Shown here: in pieces, positions 3,977-18,874 of the stretch
Layout of the letters: every line of letters begins with the position of its first letter
How positions within the stretch are numbered: position 1 is the first letter of the stretch
Source of the DNA: Rotaria magnacalcarata
Taxonomy: Eukaryota
NCBI GenBank assembly: GCA_965140935.1
Contig: CBCSLL010001102.1
Coordinates: forward strand, 25,393 to 44,266
Reading direction: 5' to 3'
DNA length: 18,874 nt
Notes under the pieces: model-generated
Told to the model about the DNA's origin: nothing
The model's database searches: none
The model's input: the letters and a program-made list of their open reading frames with translations, nothing else
Translations under genes and position numbers: made by a program

Positions 3977-6926
3977 TCATCGAATATTACCGAGTGAATT
4001 AAAACCTTGTTCACGCAAATAATGTTCAAGACGATTAAAAATTTCACAATCGATATGAAGTACATCAGCTAACTGTTTATTCAATATAAATGAACCATCC
4101 TGTATTTGAATTCAATAAAAAACAAAAAATAAGTGCCGTAAATGATAATTTATACTACCTCATATTGAAGTTGCATAATCGCTTCAATCATAGTTTTTGT
4201 AGATTGAACATCTTTGAGCTTACCAAGAAGTGTATCATCGATTGTTTTACCTAAATTCATGAATTATCATAGTTTCTTTTGAGAATACTAACAAGACATC
4301 GACGAACCTAACGTAGTAGCAAGTTCACCCGAAAAATTATGTATTACAGTTTCGGTTTGGCCGTCAAGCTAACAAAATGAACAACAACAGAACAATCGAA
4401 TTACAACAAAATGATACGCTACGCACTGTGTACAATGGATCCTCAGGCTTGCGATCATAAACTGCAAAATAGAAAGAATTAAATATCATTTTTTTTTTGA
4501 AACACTGACCAGATTTAGCTTGGAAGTCTGCATCGCTTTGGACATAAGCAATATGTCGTTCAATGTCATCTACTGACGATCCTAGAAAAGTTTAAAATAT
4601 ATTTAAAGATCAAATGAAAACAAATCGAGTAATTAACGTACTTGCGACATCACCAGGGTTGATACTAATGGATGCTTTGGCACCTGAACGTGCTTCTTCG
4701 GCATCAACTCGAATTATACCATTCGCATCGATCTCCATTCTAATAGCTATTTCGAGCGTCTGAGCAGCAAAGTTACGTGTTAGGCCGCTCAGACACAGTT
4801 CTCCCAACAGTAGCTAAAATAGAAAAAAAACACTATAGAATGAAGTTTATCCATTTAGTTCACGACATACATTGTATTTTGTCAGATTATGTTCGCCTTC
4901 AAATACGCGAATAGAAGCTGTCGTTTGATAGGCATAAGCATTGGTGAATATTGAATAAAATTGAGTTCGCGTTGGAATCGTTGTATTACGACGAATAAGT
5001 ATGTGCATGCGACCGTGAGTATCTTCTACACCCAAGCCCAGTGCACAGACATCGAGGAGTAATAGGTCGTGGATGGATGCTTGTGATGTCACCTCAGCTT
5101 TGGTTGCCCTGTGAGAGATCAGCTTTTATTTTTATTATCATTTAAAATAATTTCACAAATAACGATTAACGATTAACATTTAACCGTTGCGCATATCTGT
5201 GAAATCTTACAGTACTTACGTTCTTCGTTGTTTTTTCTTTTTACGTGACATCATATGTAAGTCTGTACTTTCTGATTCGGCGTTTTGCATATCACTCTCA
5301 TCAAAGCCTCTCTAGAAGCGAGTGAAAGTTTTGCAAAAATATTGCATACTCAGTTACATACTTCAGCCACTTTGAACGCTTGCTTCATTGACGTATTCAT
5401 TCTTTTGCATGAGGTATCAGATAAGGTACTCATGGGAGCTTTCGGTTGTAGTACCTGAGCTGCCTGCATGTAGTAGCCACTACTACTACTACTATCACAA
5501 ACTGCTACAGATGCTTGCTTTGATGACGATGATGAAAATGAAGGAGAAAAAAGGTTTTTAAAATAATCTAGGCCAGATGACGATATTGGTGAGATACCTA
5601 GAATATATAAATTTATGCAACTATCAATCGATCCACAAGAATAATATGTTGAACTATGATAAATTATATTACTACCATAGATAAAGTAATGAAATATCGT
5701 GATCTTTTAGATTTGCGTTATTATATTTATCATATGTCTACTGAATGAAGATAAAGCTAAGATGATTGCATATCACTTGGAGACAGTGTTTCTTTAGAAA
5801 ATATTGTCTACCTGGCTTTGGTATGGAGCGAAGATGATTGCATAAACTACAGTCTACTATTATAAAAAATAGATTTAGAATTTTTTTAACTATAATTTTT
5901 CGTGATTATTTTTTGAATTTGTCTTAGGAAACTACATTATTTACAAAGGTATTACACATCTATTCAGAAACGACAGGTCTAATAGTAAACTACTGCAAAC
6001 TATCCACCGCATATTCATTATACATATAGCTTGCATTTATGAAATACAACATTATTTACATTTTGTATTCCGAGCTGTGCTTTGTATTTCAATAGGACAA
6101 CCAATAAGAGCAATCCTACGAAAAGCTAACTATATACTACGAAATATACCATAGACTTCTAATGGACGCAACCGATTCAAATATATTATGGCTACAATGA
6201 AACTTCAGGAGTAACATAAATCGAGGAAATGATACTGATTGCGAAAGAGAAGTAGTAGAAGTAGCGGCTTTTGCCATTTCTAGATATCGTAAGTTCATCG
6301 ATGATAGAAAATGGCAATGCCGAGTACAGAAATTAGTATTATTCTATTTGTGACTCACCAGCTGCTGATTGAGAATTCATTTGTGATGCCATATTCAGAA
6401 AAGTTGCGTTGTTATTATTGGTGTTGTTTATTATTTGATCTGCTGCATCCTTCCTTAGATTTGATGCATTAGCATTCATAAACATATTCTGAAGCTGTTC
6501 ACTAGTACCAGGGGCTGCCATATCAGAATAGGGCTTTGATGTATCCATTGAGGATGTCGGCGAAGAGAAAAGGTTTGATATTAAACCTCTATCTCTCAAT
6601 ATAGATCTCTTTTCTGCAAATTGTTGTCGGTATACCAGTAGCTGTTGCCGCTGCTGCTGCGGTGGTAGCGGTGGTGGTGACATTCTCATTGACAGTGGCA
6701 TTGGCGGTGGTGGCGGTGGTGGTAGTAGTGGTGACATTGACGTTGGCATTGGCGGTGCCGCTGATACTGACATTCTCATTGACATTGGTATTAGTGGTGC
6801 TGGCGGTGGTGATGACATTCTCATTGACAGTGCCATTGGCGGTGGTGGCGGTGGTGGTAGTAGTGGTGACATTGACAGTGCCATTGGCGGTGCCGCTGAT
6901 GATGACATTTTCATTGACATTGGCAT
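3977..6926 (-). CDS. Gene 2 (10 exons, 562 aa): N-terminal Pro/Met/Ser-rich tandem-repeat and Q/N/S-rich low-complexity region joined to an Hsp70-type substrate-binding domain (SBD-beta plus helical lid). No Hsp70 nucleotide-binding domain is present. Exons on the minus strand: 6359-6926, 5362-5597, 5220-5311, 4871-5108, 4642-4813, 4510-4581, 4427-4461, 4308-4368, 4159-4250, 3977-4099 (stop included)
   Basis: All junctions are canonical GT-AG with consistent phases, and the total of 1689 nt is 3 x 563. Translation of 4871-5108: ...TATKAEVTSQASIHDLLLLDVCALGLGVEDTHGRMHILIRRNTTIPTRTQFYSIFTNAYAYQTTASIRVFEGEHNLTKYN. Translation of 4642-4813: LLLGELCLSGLTRNFAAQTLEIAIRMEIDANGIIRVDAEEARSGAKASISINPGDVA. 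Translation of 4510-4581: RSSVDDIERHIAYVQSDADFQAKS. These align with the Hsp70 SBD (HSPA8-like DLLLLDV...KRNTTIPTK...VYEGER...LLG.FEL.GIPPAPRG.PQIEVTFDIDANGIL.V.A.DK.TG....ITI.NDKGRLSKE.IERMV). Introns are 38-63 nt, except the 761-nt first intron. The 3' lid exons are less certain. Confidence 0.7.
4642..4813 (-). CDS. Gene 2 exon 5: remainder of Hsp70 SBD-beta (LEIAIRMEIDANGIIRVDAEE...ISINPGDVA)
   Basis: ORF 4610..4807. Acceptor ttttag|CTACTG at 4813, donor GCAA|GTACGT at 4642. Confidence 0.75.
4871..5108 (-). CDS. Gene 2 exon 4: start of Hsp70 SBD-beta (DLLLLDV...RRNTTIPT...VFEGE)
   Basis: ORF 4847..5092 extended upstream to the acceptor ctctcacag|G at 5108. Donor AAT|GTATGT at 4871. Confidence 0.75.
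6359..6926 (-). CDS. Gene 2 exon 1: ATG at 6926; Pro/Met/Ser-rich repeats, then a Q-rich and N/S-rich low-complexity tail, ending at a G|GTGAGT donor
   Basis: ORF track 6339..6926 (MPMSMKMSSSAAPPMALSMSPLLPPPPPPPMALSMRMS...QQQRQQ...NNTNNNNATF...SQSAAG). The donor GTGAGT at 6358 splices in phase to 5597. No in-frame stop lies between the upstream acceptor-like ttaatag at about 6990 and the ATG. Confidence 0.6.
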
Positions 6927-6948
6927 TGGTGGTGCTGGCGGTGGTGGC
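6679..6948. repeat. Coding tandem duplication: 2 x 135 bp (each made of two ~67-bp subunits), encoding 45-aa repeats MSMRMSSPPPAPLIPMSMRMSVSAAPPMPTSMSPLLPPPPPPP on the minus strand
   Basis: gacattctcattgacagtg[g/c]cattggcggtggtggcggtggtggtagtagtggtgacattgac... recurs at 6679 and 6814. All three minus-strand frames and one plus-strand frame are open only because of the repeat (ORFs 6589..6966 and 6662..7006 are artefacts of it). Confidence 0.85.
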
Positions 6949-7080
6949 GGCTGAGATGCTTGCCAAGATTCACTTGATGATGGAAGTAGTGGAACTATTA
7001 ATATGAATCAAGGTGAATGTTTTTATATCTCGAATAGAAATAATGGGCTGTAGTAAAATCTGGGCTCGCAGCAGCCTTTC

Positions 7081-7161
7081 AAAAATATATAGGAATATAT
7101 GGGAATTGTTAGACCTCAAATATATAGGATCGTCCTCGGACATATAGGAAATATATGGGAC
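7081..7161. repeat. Cluster of three ATATAGGAA(A)TATATGGGA-type motifs in direct orientation, about 55-bp spacing
   Basis: aaaaatatataggaatatatgggaattg ... aaatatataggatcg ... catataggaaatatatgggacgc. Confidence 0.6.
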
Positions 7162-8221
7162 GCTAATATTTCGTTTAAAAATAACTAAGCATGTAAAAAT
7201 CACTACTACAGAATGGTAGGTGATGTTCTTATAACGTACCTCGACTCACCCAAATAAAAATACAGCTTTGTTATGAAAAACAGTAGTATGGCAGTATTTT
7301 ATACAAAGAAGAAATAATTTATGTTCGGTTAACCTTCGACTATTTCACAGCTACATGCAAGGAGAAAACAGGTGAAATCGGATTCTTTTTGTTGATTTTC
7401 CTTTTGATTTTTCTAATTTTAAACCAACTGATTTTAAGCGAAGAAACTCAGAAAAAATTTTTAAAATTGAAAAAATCGGAAAAATCCAAAGAAGCAAAAA
7501 GCAGCCCCATTTCAACTGTTTCACTCTCGATTAACATTTTCAAGCACAAAGATTAAAAATTTTAGCATTCTCATTGATTTGTCTGATGTTTTTCATTTTC
7601 ATTTTTGATTTAAATCAAAAAGTCAGTTTTTCCTCCCTTGCCGACATATCATAAAAATATTATAAAATTGATTGAGATAAAGATCACAAAAATACTTTCT
7701 TTTAATGTAAAGCAACAATCGATATCTTTTGTCAAGACTATTATAATTTCTAACAGTCTCAGAGCTATATAATCGAAATGGATACATATTTAAAGCACAG
7801 CAAAATAATCGGTTTAGTAAAAGATAATCGATGCATTGGTAAAAGTTTTCTTCGTTTCTGATGCTACTTGAAAATAAACATCACCGTTTCTAGTACTGTC
7901 AAACATAGTAGAATCACTTTCTAGCTGTATCTTTCTTTTGTCTTAATATCACTTTTTTTGAAACAAAATTCATCACAAATATTTAGATTAGCATGCACTC
8001 TTTCACTGTTTATTGCAATAAATACTGACGAAACACATGCAAATCTATACATTGGTGTTGAATTTTTTCTTTTTTAAGTGATATTAAGATAGAAAAATTT
8101 AAAGAAAATATTGGCCTTAGTGCTTTATATTATGATATGAACGCCGCTGATAATATTTAAACAACATGCTAGGCACTTATTTGAAGGAAATATGGTTCTT
8201 TCCACAATAATCTTTAATTTT

Positions 8222-8304
8222 TTGAAAAATATAGGAATATAGGAAAAAAGCTCAAAATATAGTCTATTATAGGACTAACTTGAAAAATATAGGAAATATA
8301 GGAG
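8222..8304. repeat. Second cluster of the same motif (TTGAAAAATATAGGAA(A)TATAGGA twice, plus a degenerate copy), same orientation, 1.14 kb from the first cluster
   Basis: ttgaaaaatataggaatataggaaaaaag ... aatatagtctattataggac ... cttgaaaaatataggaaatataggaggac. Confidence 0.6.
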
Positions 8305-8874
8305 GACTGCGATGCCAGAGTAAAATGTATTCGGATAAATTAAGAACGATTTGGTAGCGTAGCTCCTTTATGACTACCATTTGAAACTCACATATATTAT
8401 TTTGCTTCCCTAAGCGAATGCAAACTATATATAAAGTAAAAACTCTTTCGTAGTGTTTCACAAAAGATCTGCATACATCTAGAGCATCTACTTCCCGCTA
8501 GAAATGAAGACAGAATGCTATAGGCTTAACTTCAAATATCACCTGTAGTTGTTGTACTGGTATGGCTCATATGATAAAGCGGTGTTGACATAGCAGATTT
8601 TGATGAGCTTTGACATCGTTCCAATGGTTCTGAAATGCGATAAAAATTAGACATTAGCATGTCAGAAGCACCCCTACGTGGTTGTAGAGGCATCGTGGAT
8701 GGTGCAGCAAATGACTCTGTAAAGAGATTAAAGAATATAGAGAAATAAGCTGGAAGCTAAGAATAATCTCACGTAAACTTCGCCCTGTCCTCTTTTCGTT
8801 CATTTCTTTTTGAGGAATTTCCTTTAAATTTTGCTTCAATTCTGATTTCGAAAGTAAATAAAATAAAATAGATT

Positions 8875-11110
8875 TCATAAATCGTTTATCTGTACAGTAC
8901 TTTTATTGATCTTTGAATTAGGTATAGGATAACTCGTCGGAGGAGACATCCGTGTGTCCGTGAATCGAGCAGTTCCAAAATCGCCGCCGCCGCCGCCGCC
9001 GCCGCCACCGGTAGCGTCCATAGTCGACTTGCCCCTCATTGAGTCACTCTTTCTATATTTCTCTAATGGCTCTGGTTTCAAATCACTTGATTTCTTCGAT
9101 GATATTTTCATTTCAAGGTTTTTTGCTAAAAATACAATCAAACATGAACTTCATGATATTGCTACTTATCGAAATATTAAATAGTCTATTCATTACTGAT
9201 AGAAAAGTGGTAGTATTCAATGACGTAAGCTTCTTCTTTCTTTGTGAAATATAGTTGCTTTGCACTGTCAAGTAGAGATTTAGATAAATATTATAATGCT
9301 GGGTTCGATATAATAAGAATAGTCCATATATATCAATCGCCATTAAATGAATAAACTGGCATATTCTTGCAATGATCAAAAAACTTTTCTTCTCTCGAGA
9401 CATCTTGATACTAAGATGGTGATATAAAAGTATCCCGGATACTTTCTTCAATAATTGATTAGTACTTATGTATTCTTCTTGGAATCAACGCGTATCGAGA
9501 TTTTGTAATTTACTCATTCAAGGAAACTTTACTTTCAAAGGCTATCTAATAATTATCTGAATGTCTACTAATGTTCCATAGCTATCGATAGGAAAACAGG
9601 AATGCCATATATCTGTCTATTGTGATTTCCTTTTCCTTTTTGACAATCAGATAGATATATTCGCTTTTTGAATGTTTTGATGACTAATGTCTAGTTGAGG
9701 ATGCGGGTTAACTCTTCCGAACTATAATTCTTTATGGTACATGTAAAATCTGGAGTTCACTAACAATAGATAAATCAGTTTGTTTGGACGAATTTATTGA
9801 TTCCGAAAATAAGTTCTAATCGTCCCTAACATAAGAGTTACAAAAATATTAAAATAATGAGAATATCACGAAAAATTTCACTTCTCCTAGTTTGTGTTAA
9901 TTGAGCTCCTTAAAAACAATTGAAACAAACGCTATTTCGTGAGTATTATTATAGTGCCTTTTGATGATTATAAAAGTTGTATTACTTACTAAAATTGATA
10001 TAGGAAGACTCATCCATAGTGTCTAACATACTGAAATCGAATCCGGAGTAGAGATCAACGTCTGATTCTGTCGACTGTAACTGTTGCGATTCTGACGGCA
10101 CTTCAACTGAAGGAATATTCTCTAAAAACGAATGCAATACATTCAACCATGAGTACAAGCACATAATCTAAGTGCTTTTTGAAAAGCAAAACATTATTAA
10201 AAAAATGATCTTTCTCTAGTATTATATTCAAAGCTTCCTATTTTCATATTAATCATGAACAAAAACACTTAATACTGCATAGTTATATTTTTCTACAAGA
10301 AATCAGTAGTATATTTTGGTTCTTTAATCGGTATTTAAGTTGCGTAGTTAATTACACTGTAAATTGACTTGGTTTTGAACATCATTCTTATACTCAAGCA
10401 GTATTTTATTCCTTTTATTTTGTTTTTTTAAGTACTCCAGAAATGCAGCAAGGATGTAATTAATATATTATAACTTAGAGTTATTCATATACAATGTACA
10501 ATATATCTGATAAAGTTCATGGAATACAAACGTGTAAATTTCTACCCTACATATTTTAAGCCTGCCTTTAGATCATGTTTCACAGATGTTGAATAACTTA
10601 CCACATCTAGAATAGGATGCGCCGCCATCGTCGAACAAACTGAATCCCATATCCTCGCCTTCATCTTCTAACGCAATCGATTTTGACGGCAGTTCAATTG
10701 AACTCGTTAGTATAGGTATACGCATGGATTCTAAAATTAAGAAGAGAAAATTTTAACGAACAATAGAAATAAATAATATATAGCGTTTTGAAAAATTCAG
10801 CATTAAAATATTTTACTCTCTACTACGACATCCAAAGTCTCTTCTGTCTGAAGTAAATATTGGGCAATGAATTTCAATATATATCTATTGATATATTATC
10901 TGTAGTAAATCTAATAAAAGCCGTGAGTTTCACACGTGTCTCAATTTCTACCATATATACATTAACCTTCTTTGGATACCATATTTCGCAAAATTTGCAT
11001 AACTCACCAGATACAGTACAATCGATGTCGTACAACAGGCCGGAGTCCAAATCCCCCTCGTCGCCGTCCTCGAATGCAGACAATTTTGATGGTAGTACGA
11101 CAGAATTCAT
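8875..11110 (-). CDS. Gene 3 (4 exons, 204 aa): small acidic protein with three tandem paralogous exon modules, each carrying a ribosomal-P-stalk-tail-like acidic/aromatic motif, followed by a Lys-rich segment, a Gly9 tract and a C-terminal tail. Exons: 11008-11110 (ATG), 10602-10730, 9990-10121, 8875-9125 (stop included)
   Basis: Exon 1: MNSVVLPSKLSAFEDGDEGDLDSGLLYDIDCTVS, donor G|GTGAGT. Exon 2: (E)SMRIPILTSSIELPSKSIALEDEGEDMGFSLFDDGGASYSRC, acceptor ttaattttag and donor G|GTAAGT. Exon 3: (E)NIPSVEVPSESQQLQSTESDVDLYSGFDFSMLDTMDESSYINF, acceptor tcgtttttag and donor A|GTAAGT. Exon 4: (T)KNLEMKISSKKSSDLKPEPLEKYRKSDSMRGKSTMDATGGGGGGGGGDFGTARFTDTRMSPPTSYPIPNSKINKSTVQINDL*. All exon ends are in phase 1 and the total of 615 nt is 3 x 205. 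Exon 4 being terminal, and there being no extra exon inside the 864-nt intron, is less certain. Confidence 0.55.
8980..9006. repeat. (GCC)n / (CCG)n trinucleotide tract, encoding Gly9 of gene 3 on the minus strand
   Basis: cgccgccgccgccgccgccgccaccgg. GC-rich microsatellite in an AT-rich context. Confidence 0.8.
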
Positions 11111-18197: not shown

Positions 18198-18295
18198 TTT
18201 TTTGTGTCTAAAAATTTAGTAAATTTTTATCTTGTTTTCAAGTCGAATAGAAAACTAAAATAGAATTTTCTGCTGTAGTCTGACTACATACTCAT

Positions 18296-18310
18296 CGTTT
18301 ATAAATGCGA
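18296..18310 (-). promoter_or_regulatory. TATA-like element (TTTATAAA) about 105 nt upstream of the PARP4-like ATG. A strong acceptor-like aaatttttag sits 10 nt upstream of the ATG
   Basis: Plus strand cgtttataaatgcgagc reads TATAAA on either strand. Position only; not verified. Confidence 0.25.
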
Positions 18311-18700
18311 GCATTTTATTTCTGATGACTAATGCGGTTATTTATTATTTTAGCGAAAGAAAAAGAGAAAATAGGTTATAGACTTCAGATTTTGCTATTT
18401 TTCTTTATGATTCTACACACTTCGCACGTGTTGTGTTATTGCACAAGCTGTCGTAACACGTATATTATAGGAATTTAAGCATGTTGTGCATCAGAACCTG
18501 GCTACACAATTTACGATAGATGCCATTACCAATCTAAAATGTCGGCTGGTTAAATATTTACAAATTTTACAGTGAAATACATTCTCAACAAGTAAAATGT
18601 CAAGAACTATGTAATGTAGACTATGAGTATGATTAGAAAAGCCAATAGAATTCACCAATGAACTCCTTCAGCGAAATGTGAAGCATTTAATATATGGAAG

Positions 18701-18874
18701 TGGCTATGTACACTCAGGTGCACATAGCCATGTGGCTATATGCACTTGAGTACACATAGCCAGTTGGCTATATACACTTAGGTGTACATAGTCGCATGAC
18801 TATGTGCACTCAAGTACATATAGCCGACTGACTATGTACACCTAAGTGTGTATAGCCAACTGGCTATGTGCACT
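18701..18874. repeat. Tandem array of alternating inverted 13-mers (TGGCTATGTGCAC / GTGCACATAGCCA) with 2-4-nt spacers. It consists of about 5.5 hairpin units of ~31 bp, each internally palindromic, and runs off the window edge
   Basis: tggctatgtacac tcag gtgcacatagcca tg tggctatatgcac ttga gtacacatagcca gt tggctatatacac ttag gtgtacatagtcg catg actatgtgcac tcaa gtacatatagccg ac tgactatgtacac ctaa gtgtgtatagcca ac tggctatgtgcact. Confidence 0.85.

What the first reader, a model, noticed from the sequence alone, without database searches (positions are those of the whole stretch)
18701..18874. Array of alternating inverted 13-mers (tandem hairpins) about 500 bp upstream of the PARP4-like start, continuing beyond the window
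The unit is TGGCTATGTGCAC alternating with its reverse complement, with 2-4-nt spacers. Every ~31-bp unit is a perfect mini-hairpin and every junction is also palindromic, so the whole array is one long quasi-palindrome. This is not a CRISPR array (there are no unique spacers) and not a simple satellite. It could be a hairpin satellite, a recombination or replication-slippage hotspot, or an array of binding sites for a dimeric factor just upstream of the gene's TATA-like element.
Basis: seen in the sequence. Interest (0 to 1): 0.5.

Follow-up and report, generated by a model that had tools for sequence, protein, structure and literature searches.

The report
Repeat-built end of a Mutator-like transposon
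The "tandem hairpin" array is the outer tip of a cut-and-paste (Mutator-like, foldback-type) transposon that landed about 500 bp upstream of a bdelloid rotifer PARP4-like gene, so it is an ordinary mobile-element end and not a special control element of that gene.

Summary
The array is real. Window 18701-18874 holds 11 alternately inverted 13-mers (consensus TGGCTATGTACAC) with 4-nt loops, 2-nt junctions and a 32-bp period. It runs off the window end. The hairpins are imperfect, with 1-4 mismatches of 13.

The array is not specific to the PARP4-like promoter. The two closest PARP4-like loci available lack it. The same structure, a 5-bp tip GGAAG followed by 3 to 10 arms, forms 13 termini in 9 other rotifer or rotifer-like contigs.

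Three complete copies have long inverted terminal repeats and 9-bp target-site duplications matching 9/9, 8/9 and 6/9. They encode a MULE / ZSWIM1-3 RNaseH-like transposase. Arm number differs between the two ends of one element (3 vs 7, 9 vs 7, 3 vs 8).

Arms keep their sequence individually. Hairpin partners are no more alike than any other two arms, and the linkers vary freely. This fits reiterated transposase-binding sites, as shown experimentally for the mosquito MULE Muta1, better than a selected hairpin structure.

Verdict: the left tip of a foldback-type MULE whose body lies beyond the window. It is a new member of a known kind, of low interest. The one odd feature is that the arms differ only by transitions (17:0).

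The parts
18687..18695 (.). Presumed left copy of the 9-bp target-site duplication (TTAATATAT). This is host DNA immediately outside the element tip.
   Evidence: Inferred only. Complete family copies have 9-bp duplications directly abutting GGAAG: L023 TATTCATAA/TATTCATAA (9/9), L021 TTTACAGTA/TTTACAATA (8/9), L010 ATTATTTAA/ATTAAAGAA (6/9). The window's other end lies outside the window, so this cannot be verified here.
18696..18700 (+). Terminal motif GGAAG, the outermost 5 bp of the transposon's terminal inverted repeat.
   Evidence: GGAAG directly precedes the first arm in the window and in 11 of 13 other termini: L004, L008, L009, L010 left and right, L019, L020c, L021 left and right, L022, and both ends of L023. 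Sequence outside it is unrelated between loci.
18701..18874 (+). Subterminal repeat array: 11 arms of 13 nt in alternating orientation, with 4-nt loops, 2-nt junctions and a 32-bp period. It is cut off by the window end, and the element interior lies to the right.
   Evidence: The architecture is the same as in the terminal inverted repeats of complete MULE copies L010, L021 and L023.

Best explanation
Window 18696-18874 is the outer part of one terminal inverted repeat (TIR) of a foldback-type Mutator-like DNA transposon (MULE) of Rotaria-type bdelloid rotifers. It inserted about 500 bp upstream of the PARP4-like gene, and the rest of the element lies beyond the window end. The element has a 5-bp tip (GGAAG). 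Next comes a variable number of 13-bp motifs arranged head-to-head and tail-to-tail with 4- and 2-nt linkers. Inside that is roughly 170 bp or more of unique TIR sequence, then a gene for a MULE / ZSWIM1-3 RNaseH-like DDE transposase with an N-terminal ZSWIM3_N-type DNA-binding domain. Transposition makes 9-bp target-site duplications.

Inferred mechanism: each 13-mer is a transposase-binding site, and a head-to-head pair suits a dimer. The reiterated sites load several transposase molecules on each end, which promotes synapsis, cleavage at the GGAAG tip and excision. This is what was shown experimentally for the 12-bp subterminal repeats of the mosquito MULE Muta1. Arm number changes by slippage or unequal exchange in 32-bp steps.

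Shown here: the shared architecture, the TIRs, the target-site duplications, the transposase domains and the copy-number variation. Inferred: that the window copy has the same interior, and that the arms bind transposase.
For: (1) The array is not a conserved gene element. L001 and L002 are PARP4-like loci whose VIT-VWA exon product is 85-88% identical at protein level, with 73-78% nucleotide identity in exons. They align with the window only up to the ATG region and have no array or tandem repeat upstream.

(2) A metagenome scan with the two-arm pattern found low-GC contigs L004, L005, L008, L009 and L010 carrying the same arms. All but L005, which starts inside its array, show the same GGAAG boundary, followed by conserved inner sequence.

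(3) L010 is a complete deleted copy at 733-2423 with inverted ends. Its internal truncated ORF hits ZSWIM1-3_RNaseH-like (5.5e-9) and ZSWIM3_N. Homologues of that ORF are Rotaria proteins with MULE domains.

(4) Loci fetched through those homologues carry the same termini. In L019 (Rotaria sp. Silwood1) and L022 the array lies about 800-850 bp upstream of the transposase gene. L021 is a full copy of about 4.8 kb with ORFs hitting PF21056 (1.1e-30) and MULE PF10551 (9.3e-14). L023 is a full copy of 4,969 bp.

(6) Arm counts are 3 to 10 in the other termini and at least 11 in the window. They differ between the two ends of one element: 3 vs 8, 9 vs 7, and 3 vs 7.

(7) Arms are conserved as individual motifs while loops and junctions vary freely. 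Hairpin partners differ by 2.92 mismatches on average, against 2.46-2.76 for other arm pairs, so there is no compensatory maintenance of pairing.

(8) Published analogue: the Muta1 TIR is a 10-bp terminal motif plus 9 x 12-bp subterminal repeats with 3-4 bp linkers. A natural non-autonomous copy has 3 and 7 repeats. More repeats give more transposase binding, a repeat is required for cleavage, and more repeats raise excision frequency (PMC5499845). Tm1 of Meloidogyne is a Mutator/Foldback family with variable ~14-bp TIR repeats and 9-bp target-site duplications (PMC3169594).
Against: Only 179 bp of the element lie inside the window. The inner TIR, the transposase gene, the second end and the target-site duplication of this particular copy are unseen, so it could be a solo or truncated end or an expanded array. 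The window's array is already longer (at least 11 arms) than any other terminus examined. No transposase-DNA binding data exist for this family. The alternating orientation differs from the direct repeats of Muta1 and Tm1, so the analogy is by architecture only. The strict transition-only variation of the arms is not explained by the binding-site model alone. The window's exact genome was not found in the databases, so no empty site or allele could be compared.
Confidence: 0.85

Rival explanations
1. TE-derived satellite. The array began as the TIR repeat of the MULE but has expanded here, beyond the window, into a long tandem array that no longer functions as a transposon end. A precedent is the satellite of Drosophila virilis that arose from the foldback transposon Tetris.
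For: The window has the highest arm count seen (at least 11, and still running at the window end). TRF also finds a 64-bp higher-order period, scoring 194 against 114 for the 32-bp period. A precedent appears in the title and abstract listed (PMC4079207).
Against: All 13 other termini have only 3-10 arms followed by unique inner sequence. The window array starts with the intact GGAAG tip exactly as functional-looking ends do. Arm divergence within the window array is as high as between copies, so there is no sign of recent homogeneous amplification.
Confidence: 0.08
2. Host cis-regulatory or structural element of the PARP4-like gene. On this view the array holds binding sites for a host dimeric transcription factor or insulator, or is a cruciform-forming promoter element selected for that gene.
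For: The array lies 499 bp upstream of the ATG. The motif is palindromic and reiterated. The folding energy is strong. MULEs are known to insert near the 5' ends of genes, which could secondarily affect expression (own knowledge; the abstract of PMC10401008 listed mentions preferential insertion near host genes).
Against: The array is absent from the two closest PARP4-like loci. The same array occurs at unrelated loci, always as the end of a transposon. Hairpin partners show no compensatory conservation.
Confidence: 0.03
3. Source of hairpin RNA or small RNA. Read-through transcripts of the quasi-palindromic array would fold into long dsRNA and be diced into siRNAs or piRNAs that silence the transposon family.
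For: Arms of 76-77 nt are about 80% complementary. There are many sub-threshold matches to repeat-derived miRNA precursor models on both strands (best 55.5 bits).
Against: No Rfam family reaches its gathering score (55.5 vs 101). The hits are symmetrical on both strands, as expected for any palindrome. No expression data are available. This would be a by-product of the TIR structure, not an alternative identity.
Confidence: 0.04

Closest known systems
Muta1, an active MULE of Aedes aegypti classed as a 'type 2 foldback' element (PMC5499845)
   Same: MULE transposase. 8-9 bp target-site duplications. The TIR is a short terminal motif plus about 9 copies of a 12-13 bp subterminal repeat separated by 2-4 bp linkers, a period of roughly 16 bp. 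Differences lie mostly in the linkers. Non-autonomous copies have unequal repeat numbers at the two ends: 3 and 7, as in L023, with L010 close at 3 and 8.
   Different: Muta1 is described as having tandem subterminal repeats and a 10-bp palindromic terminal motif, GGGTCTACCC. Here successive repeats alternate in orientation, giving 32-bp palindromic units, and the tip is the 5-bp non-palindromic GGAAG. The TIR also continues about 170 bp beyond the array. Relatedness of the transposases was not tested.
Tm1, a Mutator/Foldback family of root-knot nematodes (PMC3169594)
   Same: Composite TIRs built from a variable number of short (~14 bp) repeats. The TIRs of one element differ in length. 9-bp target-site duplications. 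The family includes MITE-like deleted derivatives plus transposase-encoding copies. The host is an asexual invertebrate.
   Different: Tm1 repeats are direct. Tm1 has asymmetric 7-bp terminal motifs outside the inverted repeat. Its transposase is of the Phantom subclass, and the clade of the rotifer transposase was not determined.
Drosophila Foldback (FB / FB-NOF) elements (own knowledge; cited as refs 43-46 in PMC3169594)
   Same: Long TIRs made of short tandem repeats (10/20/31 bp) whose number varies between copies and ends. Strong fold-back potential.
   Different: FB arms are hundreds to thousands of bp long and built of direct repeats. Many FB copies have almost no central region. Here the arrays are 50-180 bp and the repeats alternate in orientation.
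En/Spm (CACTA) subterminal 12-bp TnpA-binding motifs (own knowledge, not tested here)
   Same: Reiterated 12-13 bp protein-binding motifs occur in both orientations near the transposon ends. Inverted (tail-to-tail) pairs are bound as dimers.
   Different: A different superfamily with CACTA termini and 3-bp target-site duplications. The motifs are irregularly spaced rather than in a strict 16/32-bp register.

Membership tests
Mutator-like elements (MULE superfamily) | Encodes a DDE transposase with the MULE domain | tested here: met
   Met for the family. L021 ORF 1759-2733 hits PF10551 MULE at 9.3e-14 and PF21056 ZSWIM1-3_RNaseH-like at 1.1e-30. The L010 internal ORF hits PF21056 at 5.5e-9. 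L019 and L022 genes are annotated MULE/PF21056. The window copy's interior lies outside the window.
Mutator-like elements (MULE superfamily) | Target-site duplication of 8-11 bp, typically 9 | tested here: met
   L023 TATTCATAA/TATTCATAA, 9/9. L021 TTTACAGTA/TTTACAATA, 8/9. L010 ATTATTTAA/ATTAAAGAA, 6/9. Not testable for the window copy because only one end is visible.
Mutator-like elements (MULE superfamily) | Long terminal inverted repeats (about 100 to several hundred bp) | tested here: met
   The L021 ends align through the array plus 171 nt of inner sequence at 94%. L010 inverted pair I1 is 83 nt at 96%, plus the arrays. The L023 ends are alike through the arrays and inner sequence.
This rotifer MULE family (window copy as a member) | Terminus is GGAAG followed by YGRCTATRYRYAC arms in alternating orientation with 4-nt and 2-nt linkers | tested here: met
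   Window 18696-18874 parses exactly like the other termini.
Foldback-type transposons (type 2 foldback sensu PMC5499845) | TIR composed of subterminal short repeats able to form secondary structure, with copy number variable between ends and copies | tested here: met
   3 to at least 11 arms per end. The two ends of one element differ: 3 vs 8, 9 vs 7, 3 vs 7. Fold z = -11.5.
Foldback-type transposons (type 2 foldback sensu PMC5499845) | Subterminal repeats bind transposase and enhance cleavage and excision | not testable with these tools
   Shown only for Muta1. It needs gel-shift and excision assays for the rotifer element.
CRISPR array | Identical direct repeats separated by unique spacers of similar length, in a prokaryotic or viral genome | tested here: not met
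   The repeats alternate in orientation, and the gaps between them are only 2-4 nt. The window is an intron-containing animal locus.
Rfam RNA families (miRNA precursors and others) | Score at or above the family's gathering threshold | tested here: not met
   The best match is mir-5014 at 55.5 bits against a gathering score of 101. Hits occur on both strands and all are below threshold.
Helitron / HUH-type elements with terminal hairpins | No TIRs, no target-site duplication, a Rep/helicase gene and a single 3' hairpin | tested here: not met
   Family copies have TIRs, 9-bp target-site duplications and a DDE MULE transposase.
Satellite DNA | Long (kb-scale) head-to-tail arrays that are not bounded by transposon structure | tested here: inconclusive
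   The other 13 termini have 3-10 arms and then unique sequence. The window array is cut by the window end at 11 arms, so its full length is unknown.

The most novel reading that the evidence does not exclude
The strictly alternating head-to-head / tail-to-tail arrangement, together with variation that preserves purine/pyrimidine identity (YGRCTATRYRYAC; 17 transitions and 0 transversions in the window), could reflect a distinct recognition mode for a MULE transposase. Candidates are dimers reading DNA shape on palindromic sites, or binding to extruded cruciforms. Alternatively it could reflect a repeat-targeted deamination-type mutational process acting on transposon ends in bdelloid rotifers.
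Probability: 0.1. Interest if true: 0.45.

Novelty: new member of a known kind. Interest (0 to 1): 0.2.

Why it matters
Mainly for annotation. The feature should be masked as a DNA-transposon end (MULE, foldback type) and not treated as a promoter element, satellite or RNA gene of the PARP4-like locus. It adds a clearly delimited MULE family to the known mobile elements of Rotaria-type bdelloids. One copy has a perfect 9-bp target-site duplication, which suggests recent mobility. That is of modest interest because transposon activity in these asexual animals is debated. The alternating-orientation repeat array is a neat natural variant on which the Muta1 result, that subterminal repeats drive transposase loading, could be tested. 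An insertion 500 bp upstream of a gene could affect its expression, but nothing here shows that it does.

Tried and rejected
1. Conserved promoter element. I fetched the two closest PARP4-like loci (L001, L002). There was no motif and no tandem repeat, and homology stops at the ATG region. Rejected.

2. CRISPR-like array. Rejected on anatomy and on the eukaryotic context.

3. Known RNA family. An Rfam E-value scan of 18200-18874 gave only sub-threshold, strand-symmetric miRNA-precursor hits. Rejected.

4. Selected hairpin or cruciform structure. I tested whether hairpin partners match better than other arm pairs. They do not: 2.92 vs 2.46-2.76 mismatches. Not supported.

5. Metagenome hits L003/L011 (44% GC, a different CGGCCGTATAGCCATTATAATA repeat) and L006/L007 (a single palindrome in prokaryote-like contigs) were judged chance matches to the degenerate pattern and set aside.

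6. The Rotaria socialis locus of P0124 (L012-L018, the same locus in 7 assemblies) has a MULE-like gene but no arrays within 6 kb. It was not useful for defining ends.

7. P0121 could not be located.

8. The 2005 PNAS paper on bdelloid DNA transposons is not held in the library. I could not check whether this family was already described. Full-text searches found no description of it.

9. No 100% match to the window's PARP4-like exon exists in the protein collection. The window could therefore not be extended directly.

Full report
**Observation**

The last 174 bases of the window (18701-18874) consist of a 13-nt motif repeated 11 times in strictly alternating orientation. The layout is forward arm, 4-nt loop, reverse arm, 2-nt junction, giving a 32-bp period and 5.4 units. 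The window ends inside the array.

The degenerate arm TGGCTATRTRCAC (up to 1 mismatch) occurs 9 times, all within the array. Shuffled sequence gives 0.04 expected. Because loops and junctions are both short, the whole stretch is a quasi-palindrome: arms of 76-77 nt are 79-80% complementary. As single-stranded DNA it folds at -61 kcal/mol, z = -11.5.

- The unit is 32 bp, not about 31.
- The five complete hairpins carry 1, 2, 3, 4 and 3 mismatches of 13, so they are not perfect.
- A 5-bp motif, GGAAG (18696-18700), precedes the first arm and turns out to be part of the feature.

**Context**

The window is an intron-containing animal locus with about 32% GC. On the minus strand lies a PARP4-like gene with PARP catalytic, VIT and VWA domains. 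Its ATG is at 18197-18195, 499 bp from GGAAG.

The VIT-VWA exon is 85-88% identical to proteins on ENA contigs and to Rotaria sordida, Rotaria sp. Silwood1 and Didymodactylos proteins. The source is therefore a bdelloid rotifer of the Rotaria type. No identical protein is in the collection.

**Is it an element of the gene?**

It is not. I fetched the two closest PARP4-like loci, L001 and L002, which share 73-78% nucleotide identity with the window in exons. Homology with the window stops at the ATG region. Neither locus has the motif or any comparable tandem repeat upstream.

**Where else is it?**

One scan of metagenome contigs with the two-arm pattern YGRCTATRYRYAC-N4-GTRYRYATAGYCR returned nine contigs. 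Four are unrelated chance matches: L003 and L011 carry a different repeat at 44% GC, and L006 and L007 carry a single palindrome in prokaryote-like DNA.

The other five (L004, L005, L008, L009, L010; 29-35% GC) carry the same arms in the same register. All but L005, which starts inside its array, are preceded by the same GGAAG. After 3-8 arms comes conserved non-repetitive sequence. DNA outside GGAAG is unrelated between contigs. That is the signature of a dispersed element's terminus.

**What the element is**

L010 contains a whole copy (733-2423). It has GGAAGTGGCTATG... at one end and ...CATAGCCACTTCC at the other, with arrays of 3 and 8 arms. Its internal truncated ORF matches ZSWIM1-3_RNaseH-like (5.5e-9) and ZSWIM3_N. 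The homologues of that ORF are Rotaria proteins carrying MULE transposase domains.

Loci retrieved through those homologues show the same ends:

| Locus | Source | Structure |
|---|---|---|
| L019 | Rotaria sp. Silwood1 | GGAAG + array 845 bp upstream of the transposase gene |
| L022 | NCBI assembly GCA_905250075.1 | GGAAG + 7 arms 814 bp upstream of the transposase gene |
| L021 | ENA ERZ25068043 | Full copy of about 4.8 kb; 9 and 7 arms; ORFs hit PF21056 (1.1e-30) and MULE PF10551 (9.3e-14) |
| L023 | ENA ERZ25069412 | Full copy of 4,969 bp; 3 and 7 arms |
| L020 | ENA ERZ25069412 | Nested copies |

- L023: TATTCATAA / TATTCATAA (9/9).
- L021: TTTACAGTA / TTTACAATA (8/9).
- L010: ATTATTTAA / ATTAAAGAA (6/9).

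Long TIRs, a 9-bp duplication and a MULE DDE transposase together define a Mutator-like element. TIRs built from short repeats of variable number define the foldback type.

The window therefore shows the outermost 179 bp of one end of such an element, with its interior to the right of 18874. TTAATATAT (18687-18695) is the presumed target-site duplication copy. This last point is inferred, not verified.

**How the array most likely works**

Three observations bear on mechanism.

First, arms are conserved as individual motifs. Positions 2, 4-7 and 12-13 are nearly invariant across 91 arms, while loops and junctions vary freely.

Second, an arm is no more similar to its hairpin partner (2.92 mismatches) than to its junction partner (2.58), to its same-orientation neighbour (2.46) or to distant arms (2.76). 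Pairing as such is therefore not being maintained by compensatory change.

Third, arm number varies from 3 to at least 11 and differs between the two ends of the same element.

This matches the experimentally studied MULE Muta1. Its 145-bp TIR is a 10-bp terminal motif plus nine 12-bp subterminal repeats with 3-4 bp linkers. A natural non-autonomous copy has 3 and 7 repeats. Added repeats increase transposase binding, a repeat is required for donor cleavage, and more repeats raise excision frequency in yeast (PMC5499845).

I therefore infer that the 13-mers are transposase-binding sites, with head-to-head pairs suited to a dimer. They would load multiple transposase molecules on each end, and array length would drift by slippage in 32-bp steps. 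Binding itself is untested for this family.

**Comparison with known families**

The closest described relatives in kind are Muta1 and Tm1. Tm1 is the Mutator/Foldback family of Meloidogyne, with a variable number of ~14-bp TIR repeats and 9-bp target-site duplications (PMC3169594). From general knowledge, Drosophila FB elements are also close. The reiterated, bidirectional TnpA motifs of En/Spm are a functional parallel.

The rotifer family differs in three ways. The repeats alternate strictly in orientation, giving 32-bp palindromic units. The tip is short and non-palindromic. About 170 bp of additional unique TIR lies inside the array.

Foldback-like DNA transposons have been mentioned for bdelloids (PMC2861651). 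I found no description of this particular family in the searchable literature. The key 2005 paper is not held.

**Rivals**

- A satellite that grew out of the TIR repeat cannot be excluded for this copy, because the array is still running at the window end and is already the longest seen. However, the intact GGAAG tip and the behaviour of 13 other termini argue for an ordinary end.
- A host regulatory role is not supported by conservation.
- Production of hairpin RNA or siRNA is possible as a by-product. No Rfam family passes threshold, and the hits are strand-symmetric.

**Unexplained**

Within the window the 11 arms differ by 17 transitions and no transversion. Pooled over 91 arms the ratio is 157:14, although the degenerate search pattern favours this outcome. 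In contrast, non-array TIR and inner sequences of the same elements give about 1.8:1, summed. Against that background, 17 of 17 has a probability of roughly 5e-4.

Either recognition tolerates only changes that preserve purine/pyrimidine identity, or a deamination-type process acts on these repeats. I could not distinguish the two.

**Verdict**

It is the repeat-built terminus of a foldback-type MULE transposon inserted upstream of the PARP4-like gene, a new member of a known kind. Interest is low (0.2).

Noticed in passing
window 18701-18874; also arms in L004-L023: Arms differ almost only by transitions: 17:0 in the window and 157:14 pooled (with an ascertainment caveat). They keep the pattern YGRCTATRYRYAC. 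Non-array TIR and inner DNA of the same elements shows about 1.8 transitions per transversion.
   Followed up: partly
L021 4232-4636 (+): The ORF at the 3' end of the MULE coding region has a weak, sub-threshold match to the Ulp1 protease / Peptidase_C48 domain (E = 0.0026, 18.1 bits vs cutoff 20.7). This recalls the Ulp1-carrying MULEs of plants (own knowledge).
   Followed up: no
L020 5268-10242: Nested insertion. A second family member (about 6944-10242) sits inside the truncated transposase region of another copy. It has one very homogeneous array of about 10 arms and an opposite end with a single hairpin. Its left tip reads CCATA instead of GGAAG, and its inner sequence (GGCAGAGTKGTAACCGGTCC) differs from the other subfamilies.
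   Followed up: partly
L012-L018 (Rotaria socialis assemblies), gene at 6001-6894: A MULE/ZSWIM-like gene (P0124) sits at the same locus in seven assemblies, with no hairpin arrays within 6 kb on either side. It may be a decayed or domesticated copy.
   Followed up: no
L002 2664-4014; L023 3563-4465; L020 1-608: Other DNA-transposon genes lie close by. A Tc5/pogo-like gene (HTH_Tnp_Tc5 + DDE_1) is upstream of the PARP4-like paralogue. A mariner Transposase_1 gene is near the L023 MULE. A DDE_3 gene is in L020.
   Followed up: no
window 6661-6946: A 135-bp tandem repeat (2.1 copies, 92% matches) rich in TGG/GGT triplets lies in a locally GC-rich (about 41%), strongly GC-skewed segment. Overlapping ORFs occur on both strands. 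It may be a glycine-rich coding repeat.
   Followed up: no
window 8982-9010: A (CGC)n triplet run of 9.7 copies lies inside short ORFs that encode poly-Gly or poly-Pro depending on the strand.
   Followed up: no
L010 72-720: The L010 MULE copy is inserted at the edge of a 165-bp tandem repeat with about 4 copies at 83-87% identity.
   Followed up: no
L003 4352-4530 and L011 1540-1710: Unrelated 44%-GC metagenome contigs carry a different tandem array (units like CGGCCGTATAGCCATTATAATA). It matched the degenerate two-arm pattern by chance.
   Followed up: no
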